Below are positions 1 through 246 of a stretch of 246 nucleotides of DNA, one piece after another. The stretch comes from Escherichia coli (GTDB lineage Bacteria; Pseudomonadota; Gammaproteobacteria; Enterobacterales; Enterobacteriaceae): assembly GCF_003334385.1 (NCBI RefSeq), contig NZ_QOWN01000222.1. One strand, 5' to 3'. Position 1 is the first letter of the stretch. Each line of letters starts with the position of its first letter. The notes beneath the pieces were generated by a model. It saw nothing but the letters and a program-made list of their open reading frames with translations, did no database searches and was not told where the DNA came from. The position numbers and the translations under genes are program-made.

Positions 1-29
1 ATACATGATCAAATACTCCTTACATAAAT

Positions 30-36
30 AAGGTGA
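30..36 (+). promoter_or_regulatory. Shine-Dalgarno-like ribosome binding site (AAGGTGA) for the transposase start codon
   Basis: Seen in sequence: purine-rich AAGGTGA at 30-36, about 4-5 nt upstream of the ATG at 41. The same frame is closed upstream by TAA at 29-31, so ATG 41 is the first start codon in that frame after a stop. Confidence 0.55.
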
Positions 37-40
37 ACAA

Positions 41-246
41 ATGGAACTTAAAAAATTGATGGAACATATTTCTATTATTCCCGATTACAGATAAGCCTGG
101 AAAGTAGAGCATAAATTGTCAGGCATCCTACTATTGACTATTTTTGCCGTTATTTCTGGTGCAGAAAGTTGGGAAGATATAGAGGATTTTGGGGAAACAC
201 ATCCCGATTTTTTGAAGCAATATGGTGATTTTGAAAATGGTATTCC
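41..246 (+). pseudogene. ISAs1-family transposase (H-repeat-associated protein), N-terminal region, interrupted by an in-frame TAA at 92-94; the frame continues past the 3' window edge
   Basis: Manual translation from ATG 41 gives MELKKLMEHISIIPDYR, then a stop, then [50 protein letters not shown] in the same frame. From memory this matches the conserved N-terminus of enterobacterial ISAs1-family transposases (for example the E. coli YhhI/YbfD/YdcC H-rpt proteins), which have Gln where this sequence has the stop. The only stops in this frame in the window are at 29-31 and 92-94. No alignment was run; the identification is recalled. Confidence 0.7.

What the first reader, a model, noticed from the sequence alone, without database searches (positions are those of the whole stretch)
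95..246. Frame remains open and protein-like for about 50 codons after the stop, indicating recent inactivation or downstream re-initiation
After the TAA there are no further stops in this frame to the window edge, and the translation still resembles the transposase N-terminal domain. In-frame TTG codons at 116, 134 and 212 are the only candidate restart codons; there is no in-frame ATG or GTG. Relative to the canonical sequence I recall ([32 protein letters not shown]), this copy appears to carry several substitutions (D to G, C to F, G to S, L to P), which would fit a decaying pseudogene. Those differences rest on my memory of the reference and need verification.
Basis: partly seen in the sequence, partly recalled or inferred. 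Interest (0 to 1): 0.35.

Follow-up and report, generated by a model that had tools for sequence, protein, structure and literature searches.

The report
Known E. coli ybfL transposase pseudogene
The window is the start of the known E. coli pseudogene ybfL, a dead copy of an H-repeat (ISAs1-family) transposase gene, and its single early stop codon is an old, common allele, so the finding is ordinary.

Summary
After TAA 92-94 the frame stays open to base 246. The only in-frame starts are TTG 116, 134 and 212. The translation is the N-terminal domain of an ISAs1-family (H-repeat/ISEc1) transposase.

The window matches E. coli K-12 ybfL (b0705), the middle of three tandem H-repeat copies in the RhsC locus, at 243-245 of 246 bases. 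RefSeq already annotates it as a pseudogene with an internal stop. NC_000913.3 starts the feature at TTG 116.

In K-12 and five other sampled genomes the TAA is the only lesion in a 378-codon frame. The stop is not recent or an error: an exact 60-nt match with TAA occurs in 2680 of 5426 complete genomes, at three or more chromosomal loci. The same flanks with CAA occur in 5.

Divergence from intact paralogues is mostly synonymous (dN/dS 0.06-0.18). Downstream variation mostly matches paralogue states, which fits gene conversion. Secondary lesions exist: a 1-bp deletion in 20 genomes and several 3' truncations.

D28G and C35F hit conserved family positions. G43S and L55P are ordinary variation.

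Restart at TTG 116 is not excluded. It has a weak Shine-Dalgarno match and would remove near-invariant D15, invariant R17 and conserved H24.

Already known; low interest.

The parts
1..40 (+). Untranslated left-end region of the H-repeat (ISEc1/ISAs1-type) element, with the Shine-Dalgarno sequence AGGTG at 31-35.
   Evidence: This stretch aligns with the regions upstream of ybfQ, ybfD, yhhI and ydcC in K-12. Homology among the copies begins about 140 nt upstream of the ATG, at CAGGGAAAGAT. SD duplex energy is -4.9 kcal/mol. ybfL and ybfQ share GGTG in place of GGAG and a 1-nt shorter spacer.
41..94 (+). Original start codon, 17 sense codons (MELKKLMEHISIIPDYR) and the premature stop.
   Evidence: The first 17 residues are identical to those of YhhI.
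92..94 (+). TAA nonsense codon at codon 18. The other four K-12 copies (yhhI, ydcC, ybfD, ybfQ) have CAA (Gln).
   Evidence: One search gives the codon table. The exact 60-mer with TAA is in 2680 of 5426 genomes, and with CAA in 5.
95..246 (+). In-frame remainder of the DDE_Tnp_1_assoc N-terminal domain coding sequence (codons 19-68 plus two bases), with no stop.
   Evidence: NF033564 hit at E = 1e-10. Pfam PF13808 covers residues 8-94 of the repaired K-12-like protein.
116..118 (+). TTG (codon 26). It is the start of the ybfL pseudogene feature in NC_000913.3 and of the 353-aa product that gene callers report, and the only plausible restart codon.
   Evidence: NC_000913.3 places ybfL at 736900-737961, and record position 736900 corresponds to window 116. 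The 353-aa protein is present in public collections. SD pairing is weak.
122..124 (+). GGC, the D28G substitution at a conserved acidic position.
   Evidence: Among 124 family members this position is D 73, E 29, N 12 and G 1. The change is specific to the ybfL-type 5' block.
143..145 (+). TTT, the C35F substitution at a conserved position.
   Evidence: Among 124 family members C occurs 80 times and F never.
167..169 (+). AGT, the G43S substitution. It is neutral-looking.
   Evidence: Family counts are G 34, S 32 and D 26.
190..211 (+). Three segregating sites (190 T/C, 204 C/T, 211 T/C). They distinguish the window from every record found. The window's state T, C, T equals the ydcC and ybfD state.
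   Evidence: Searches show other combinations of these sites in different strains. One search shows the window carrying ybfL-type markers up to 169 and ybfD-type markers at 190, 204 and 211.

Best explanation
The window is the 5' end of a ybfL-type H-repeat copy. This is a non-functional copy of the ISAs1-family (ISEc1/H-rpt) transposase gene of Escherichia coli, best known as ybfL (b0705), the middle of three tandem H-repeat copies downstream of rhsC.

A C-to-T change turned Gln codon 18 (CAA) into TAA. Translation from the good SD and ATG 41 ends after 17 residues, so no full transposase is made.

The frame downstream is still open and protein-like for three reasons:
1. Most of its divergence from the paralogues happened while the gene was constrained.
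2. A single nonsense mutation does not close a frame. Over within-species time scales many neutral lineages will not yet have a second lesion (back-of-envelope inference).
3. The sequence downstream of the 5' block keeps being overwritten by gene conversion and recombination with the paralogous copies yhhI, ydcC and ybfD.

Shown here: identity, the stop, the open frame, allele frequency, the multi-locus distribution, the mosaicism and the secondary lesions. Inferred: that the protein product is absent or irrelevant, and that gene conversion rather than selection keeps the frame clean.
For: Identity:
- The window has 1 mismatch in 246 bases to the ybfL position in MG1655-derived records and in strain I4, and 3 mismatches to NC_000913.3.
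- RefSeq annotates the gene as 'ISAs1 family transposase, internal stop' or as pseudogene ybfL, lying between ybfQ and ybfD.

Domains:
- PF13808 covers residues 8-94 and PF01609 covers 102-343.
- The window fragment hits NF033564.

State of the frame:
- TAA is the sole lesion in 7 of 13 sampled TAA-bearing copies.
- Two of the 13 carry an extra 1-bp deletion at window position about 216. That allele is in 20 genomes.
- Four of the 13 are truncated at the 3' end or are ybfL-ybfD hybrids.

Age of the allele:
- 2680 genomes carry TAA, against 5 with CAA on the same flanks.
- The TAA copy is found next to ybgA (RhsC), next to pptA (RhsE) and next to yafV.

Constraint:
- dN/dS is 0.06-0.08 over the full length and 0.10-0.18 within the window.

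Mosaicism:
- Most of the 41 variable sites among full-length TAA copies carry states seen in the K-12 paralogues, whereas the sampled copies differ from the window at 0-1 sites across bases 1-189.
- Sites 190, 204 and 211 occur in several combinations.
- A laboratory-evolved K-12 strain acquired a ybfL-ybfD fusion deletion (PMC10044804).

Decay in the 5' block:
- D28G and C35F are at conserved positions.
Against: - Seven of 13 sampled copies keep a perfect 361-codon frame after the stop, even though the allele is widespread. This is also what weak selection on a restart product would give.
- Gene callers and the NC_000913.3 feature start at TTG 116, 22 nt after the stop. That geometry resembles the classical restart mutants of lacI and T4 rIIB (from my own knowledge, not checked here).
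- No expression data were examined.
- The window's own downstream sequence is unknown. Its exact haplotype was found in no collection.
Confidence: 0.87

Rival explanations
1. Translational restart. Ribosomes that terminate at TAA 92-94, or ribosomes initiating de novo, start again at TTG 116 and make a 353-aa N-terminally truncated transposase. This product has some activity, for example as a trans-dominant inhibitor comparable in principle to the Tn5 Inh protein, and that activity keeps the downstream frame intact.
For: - TTG 116 lies 22 nt after the stop. It is the annotated start in NC_000913.3 and in called proteins on 590 contigs.
- The NCBIfam ISAs1 model begins at residue 29, so the product would retain all of that model's region.
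- The frame is intact in 7 of 13 sampled copies of an allele carried by 49% of genomes.
- dN/dS is low.
Against: - The start is TTG with weak SD pairing: -3.3 kcal/mol, against a background mean of -2.3 and -4.9 for the native start.
- No special RNA structure surrounds it (z = -0.14).
- The product would lack D15 (121 of 124), R17 (124 of 124) and H24 (102 of 124), and would carry G28 and F35 at conserved positions.
- Natural lineages have lost the frame by a 1-bp deletion, by 3' truncation and by an upstream IS1 insertion.
- The low dN/dS is explained by divergence before inactivation and by gene conversion.
Confidence: 0.07
2. Sequencing error or a very recent private mutation in an otherwise intact transposase gene.
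For: Only one lesion is visible in the window.
Against: - The identical TAA-bearing 60-mer is in 2680 independently assembled complete genomes.
- The window differs from every intact paralogue at 13-16 of the 204 compared coding bases, not only at position 92.
Confidence: 0.01
3. Programmed or suppressor-mediated read-through of the TAA gives a full-length 378-aa transposase at a low level.
For: The frame is continuous across the stop, and the rest of the gene is intact in K-12-like copies.
Against: - TAA is the most efficiently recognised stop codon in E. coli (established knowledge).
- No recoding signal or RNA family was found (Rfam gave nothing; the local fold is not significant).
- The product would still carry G28 and F35 at conserved positions.
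- H-repeat elements have not been seen to transpose (PMC3032704).
Confidence: 0.02

Closest known systems
E. coli K-12 ybfL (b0705), which I recall as H-rptC2, the RhsC-linked H-repeat pseudogene
   Same: - 243-245 of 246 bases are identical.
- It has the same TAA at codon 18 and the same copy-specific markers (codon 13 ATT, codons 22-23 GTA GAG, TTG TCA GGC ATC CTA, F35, S43).
- It has the same SD variant, GGTG with the shorter spacer.
   Different: - The window carries T190, C204 and T211, a combination not seen in any searched record. These are the ydcC/ybfD states.
- The chromosomal locus cannot be read from the window, and TAA-bearing copies also occur next to pptA and next to yafV.
Full-length K-12 H-repeat ORFs YhhI (RhsB-linked) and YdcC (RhsE-linked), both ISAs1 family and ISEc1-like
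   Same: The same 378-codon gene, about 96% identical in nucleotide sequence, with the same two-domain architecture.
   Different: They have CAA at codon 18 and D28, C35 and G43. They are annotated as intact genes.
Classical translational restarts after early nonsense codons (lacI, T4 rIIB) and the N-terminally truncated Tn5 Inh inhibitor. This comparison rests on my own knowledge and was not checked in the literature here.
   Same: An early stop is followed within about 20 nt by an in-frame non-ATG start. A truncated transposase lacking part of the N-terminal domain could in principle act as an inhibitor.
   Different: No product has been demonstrated, SD pairing is weak, and the truncation removes invariant family residues. 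Inh is made from a dedicated start in a functional element, not from a nonsense allele.

Membership tests
ISAs1-family transposase gene (H-repeat / ISEc1) | N-terminal DDE_Tnp_1_assoc domain (PF13808), or a match to the NCBIfam ISAs1 model. | tested here: met
   PF13808 covers residues 8-94 at E = 7.5e-32 on the K-12-like protein with codon 18 repaired. The window's 50 post-stop residues hit NF033564 at E = 1e-10. The score of 41 bits is below the 70-bit whole-protein cutoff because only 40 of 314 profile positions lie in the window.
ISAs1-family transposase gene (H-repeat / ISEc1) | DDE catalytic domain (PF01609) downstream. | not testable with these tools
   The domain lies outside the 246-base window, and the source contig was not found. 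It is present at residues 102-343 in the closest relatives.
ISAs1-family transposase gene (H-repeat / ISEc1) | A single uninterrupted transposase ORF, that is, a functional member. | tested here: not met
   TAA at codon 18. The sequence is a pseudogene member of the family.
ISAs1-family transposase gene (H-repeat / ISEc1) | An element of about 1.3 kb bounded by short terminal inverted repeats. | tested here: inconclusive
   In the K-12 copies homology starts at CAGGGAAAGAT about 140 nt upstream of the ATG and ends at ATCTTGCCCTG after the stop codon. Both ends lie outside the window.
E. coli ybfL (RhsC-linked copy) | TAA at codon 18 together with the ybfL-specific 5' block markers. | tested here: met
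   All markers from 41 to 169 are of ybfL type. The exact 60-mer is shared with 2680 genomes.
E. coli ybfL (RhsC-linked copy) | Position between ybfQ and ybfD, downstream of rhsC-ybfB-ybfO-ybfC. | not testable with these tools
   The window lies wholly inside the repeat. The same block occurs at the pptA-linked and yafV-linked loci in other strains.
Translational restart / truncated-transposase inhibitor | An in-frame initiation codon close downstream of the stop, with a usable ribosome-binding site. | tested here: inconclusive
   TTG 116 lies 22 nt after the TAA. The best SD duplex is -3.3 kcal/mol, against a background mean of -2.3.
Translational restart / truncated-transposase inhibitor | A detectable truncated protein with activity. 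| not testable with these tools
   This needs ribosome profiling, proteomics or reporter fusions. Papers that mention ybfL gave no functional data.

The most novel reading that the evidence does not exclude
The TAA-bearing ybfL-type allele is not merely dead. A 17-residue leader followed by restart at TTG 116 yields a 353-aa truncated transposase that dampens H-repeat/ISEc1 transposition in trans. This would help explain three things: why the allele is carried by about half of E. coli genomes, why it has been copied to several H-repeat loci, and why it often keeps an intact downstream frame.
Probability: 0.03. Interest if true: 0.4.

Novelty: already known. Interest (0 to 1): 0.08.

Why it matters
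It matters little. ybfL is already annotated as a pseudogene with an internal stop in reference E. coli genomes.

The modest added value is descriptive:
- The nonsense allele is old and common, in about 49% of complete genomes.
- It sits in a nearly invariant 5' block that occurs at three or more H-repeat loci.
- The rest of the gene is a gene-conversion mosaic.

This makes it a clean small example of why an open, protein-like frame after a stop does not by itself indicate recent inactivation or function in a multi-copy family. It also warns that gene callers routinely report the post-stop ORF as a 353-aa 'ISAs1 family transposase'.

Tried and rejected
**Searches for the window's exact haplotype**
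- A 136-nt exact pattern found nothing in the GTDB species representatives or in JGI metagenomes.
- A Y-degenerate 56-nt ybfL-block pattern found nothing in the GTDB representatives.
- Contigs encoding the P55 version of the 353-aa product all differ from the window at 190 and 211.
- The source strain and the window's true downstream sequence therefore remain unknown.

**Sequence-feature scans**
- Rfam at a permissive threshold returned nothing.
- The RNA fold around the stop and TTG 116 was no better than shuffles.
- Promoter-like sites were not above shuffled expectation.

**Literature**
- Papers naming ybfL use it only as an integration site or list it in deletions.
- The original H-repeat paper (Zhao et al. 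1993, PMC204594) is not held. Statements about H-rptC1, C2 and C3 rest on my memory.
- A search for restart literature gave nothing directly usable.

**Polymorphism among TAA-bearing copies**
- I tried this as a test of neutrality after inactivation. There were 30 synonymous and 11 nonsynonymous variable sites.
- Most variants are paralogue states imported by conversion, so the ratio says nothing clean about selection. I rejected the test as inconclusive.

**Other readings rejected**
- 'Sequencing error' and 'identical to intact copies except at position 92'.
- That the 5 CAA-bearing genomes hold an intact ancestor. They are 3'-truncated ybfL-ybfD hybrids with mosaic markers.

Full report
**What is in the window**

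The + strand carries a good Shine-Dalgarno sequence (AGGTG, 31-35) and ATG 41. Seventeen sense codons follow, then TAA at 92-94. The same frame then runs without a stop to base 246: [67 protein letters not shown].

After the stop the only in-frame start candidates are TTG 116, 134 and 212. There is no ATG or GTG. From base composition, 50 stop-free codons have P about 0.015. The 50 post-stop residues alone match NCBIfam NF033564, ISAs1 family transposase, at E = 1e-10.

**Identity**

Megablast against 5426 complete E. coli genomes finds the window in 5211 of them, at a median of 5 places per genome.
- The best matches have 1 mismatch, at position 190. They lie at the gene between ybfQ and ybfD, downstream of rhsC-ybfB-ybfC, in MG1655-derived records and in strain I4. 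RefSeq annotates that gene 'ISAs1 family transposase, internal stop'.
- In NC_000913.3 the same place is pseudogene ybfL (b0705), with 3 mismatches at 190, 204 and 211.
- That annotation starts the feature at 736900, which is window TTG 116.

The K-12 copies share homology from about 140 nt upstream of the ATG (CAGGGAAAGAT) to just after the stop codon (ATCTTGCCCTG). Window bases 1-40 are therefore the element's untranslated left end.

The protein with codon 18 repaired has PF13808 (DDE_Tnp_1_assoc) at residues 8-94 and PF01609 (DDE_Tnp_1) at 102-343. From memory, this is the H-repeat of Hill and colleagues (H-rptC2), called ISEc1-like in ISfinder. I could not read that paper here. A genome paper held in the library states that transposition of H-rpt has not been observed (PMC3032704).

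The recalled string is exactly YhhI residues 26-57. Relative to YhhI the window has D28G, C35F, G43S and L55P.
- P55 is also present in YdcC (intact) and YbfD, so it is ordinary paralogue variation.
- I aligned 124 full-length family members at roughly 36-54% identity, taken from a search that returned 29,902 representatives at E up to 0.001.
- Position 28 is D, E or N in 114 of 124 and G in 1.
- Position 35 is C in 80 and never F.
- Position 43 is G 34, S 32 and D 26.

D28G and C35F look like damage. G43S and L55P do not.

**Extending downstream in relatives**

In K-12 the TAA is the only defect in a 378-codon frame. I examined 13 TAA-bearing copies.
- Seven are full length with the TAA as sole lesion. 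Six are RhsC-linked and one is yafV-linked in strain E2865.
- Two have an additional 1-bp deletion at window position about 216. That allele is present in 20 genomes.
- Four are truncated at the 3' end. One is a ybfL-ybfD hybrid in 2011C-4251. Three are pptA-linked (RhsE-position) copies in RM10042, FWSEC0008 and GPEC1366.

Dead-copy lesions therefore do accumulate, but they are not universal.

**Age and spread of the stop**

An exact 60-nt match spanning the TAA is found in 2680 of 5426 genomes, from many hosts, serotypes and countries. The same 60-mer with CAA is found in 5. The three of those examined are 3'-truncated ybfL-ybfD hybrids with mosaic markers, not intact ancestors.

The ybfL-type block was absent from all GTDB species representatives. 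The stop is therefore neither an error nor a private recent mutation. It is an old, common E. coli allele that sits at three or more H-repeat loci.

**Substitution pattern**

| Comparison | Synonymous differences | Nonsynonymous differences | dN/dS or pN/pS |
|---|---|---|---|
| ybfL vs yhhI, full length | 32 | 8 | 0.06 |
| ybfL vs ydcC, full length | 35.5 | 11.5 | 0.08 |
| Window 95-244 vs yhhI, ydcC and ybfD | 7-8.5 | 3-5 | 0.10-0.18 |

The window differs from these paralogues at 13-16 of the 204 compared coding bases.

The ybfL-specific changes are strongly concentrated in codons 13-57. That region has about 10% divergence and includes the stop and three missense changes. The remaining ~960 bases have under 2% divergence.

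Among full-length TAA copies, most of the 41 variable sites downstream carry states seen in yhhI, ydcC or ybfD. Across window bases 1-189 the sampled copies differ from the window at 0-1 sites.

Sites 190, 204 and 211 occur in at least five combinations across strains. Nominal MG1655 records even disagree with one another at these sites. A laboratory-evolved K-12 strain acquired a ybfL-ybfD fusion deletion (PMC10044804).

Together these results indicate a distinct 5' haplotype block carrying the lesions, joined to a body that is repeatedly homogenised by recombination with paralogues. That explains the clean frame and the low dN/dS without invoking function.

As a back-of-envelope inference, a neutral ~1.1-kb frame over within-species divergence of about 1-2% is expected to acquire well under one disrupting mutation per lineage. 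Seven intact frames out of 13 is therefore unremarkable.

**Re-initiation**

In favour:
- TTG 116 lies 22 nt after the stop.
- It is the start used by the reference annotation and by gene callers. The 353-aa product occurs on 579 contigs for the L55 form and 11 for the P55 form, named 'ISAs1 family transposase'.
- The NCBIfam model starts at residue 29, so that model's region would be retained.

Against:
- The start is TTG with SD pairing of only -3.3 kcal/mol. The background mean is -2.3 and the native start scores -4.9.
- No significant local structure is present.
- The restart product would lose D15 (121 of 124), R17 (124 of 124) and H24 (102 of 124) of the N-terminal domain, and would carry G28 and F35 at conserved positions.
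- Natural lineages have lost the frame.

A low level of restart translation cannot be excluded from sequence alone. A selected function is unlikely, and I put it at about 0.07.

**Unresolved**

The window's exact haplotype (T190, C204, T211) was found in none of the complete E. coli genomes, GTDB representatives, metagenomes or contigs encoding the P55 product.
- Its markers are ybfL-type up to position 169 and ydcC/ybfD-type from 190.
- The source copy may carry a short conversion tract, or it may be a ybfL-ybfD hybrid with a truncated 3' end.
- The window lies entirely inside the repeat, so its chromosomal locus cannot be assigned.

**Verdict**

This is an already known, annotated pseudogene of a well-known IS-like family. 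It is partly wrong: the inactivation is not recent in population terms, and two of the four substitutions are normal variation. Re-initiation remains untested. Interest is low.

Noticed in passing
window 189-213: There is a terminator-like hairpin with a T-run, TTGGGGAAACACATCCCGA TTTTTT. One such site was found against 0.1 expected in shuffles. All three sites that distinguish the window from MG1655 ybfL (190, 204, 211) fall in this hairpin or T-run. The window's states, which equal those of ydcC and ybfD, give the best stem and an unbroken T6. It lies inside the ORF of the paralogues too, so it is probably chance.
   Followed up: partly
window 26-41; L002:8811-8826: ybfL and ybfQ share a variant ribosome-binding region, AAGGTGAACAAATG. 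yhhI, ydcC and ybfD have AAGGAGAACAAAATG, that is GGAG rather than GGTG and a spacer 1 nt longer. The 5' haplotype block therefore extends upstream of the ATG and links the first two tandem copies.
   Followed up: partly
L001:4204 and 4211 vs L002:8989 and 8996 (window 204, 211): Records labelled E. coli K-12 MG1655 (CP010441-CP010445) differ from NC_000913.3 inside ybfL at two sites, and both changes are to the ybfD/ydcC state. This is either a short gene-conversion tract in a laboratory lineage or an assembly effect in a repeat.
   Followed up: no
L010:3041-3814, L013:1379-2152, L016:1379-2152, L011:1379-2515: The TAA-bearing 5' block also occurs outside the RhsC locus. It is found in 3'-truncated copies next to pptA, the position of the intact ydcC in K-12, and in a full-length copy next to yafV in strain E2865, which is tandem to a second, frameshifted ISAs1 pseudogene.
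   Followed up: partly
L005:2979-3737, L006:2979-3737, L007:2979-3737, L009:3041-3799: Natural ybfL-ybfD hybrid copies reduce the three tandem H-repeats to two. Three of them have CAA at codon 18 flanked on both sides by ybfL-type markers, which implies very short conversion patches. A laboratory-evolved K-12 strain made the same kind of fusion (PMC10044804).
   Followed up: partly
L017:410-1107: In strain 23CRST038 an IS1 element lies just upstream of the ybfL-type copy. That copy also has the 1-bp deletion, and PGAP starts the pseudogene only after the TAA.
   Followed up: no
window 95-246, minus strand: One antisense frame across the same stretch is also free of stops. I take this as a by-product of the sense-strand codon pattern and did not pursue it.
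   Followed up: no
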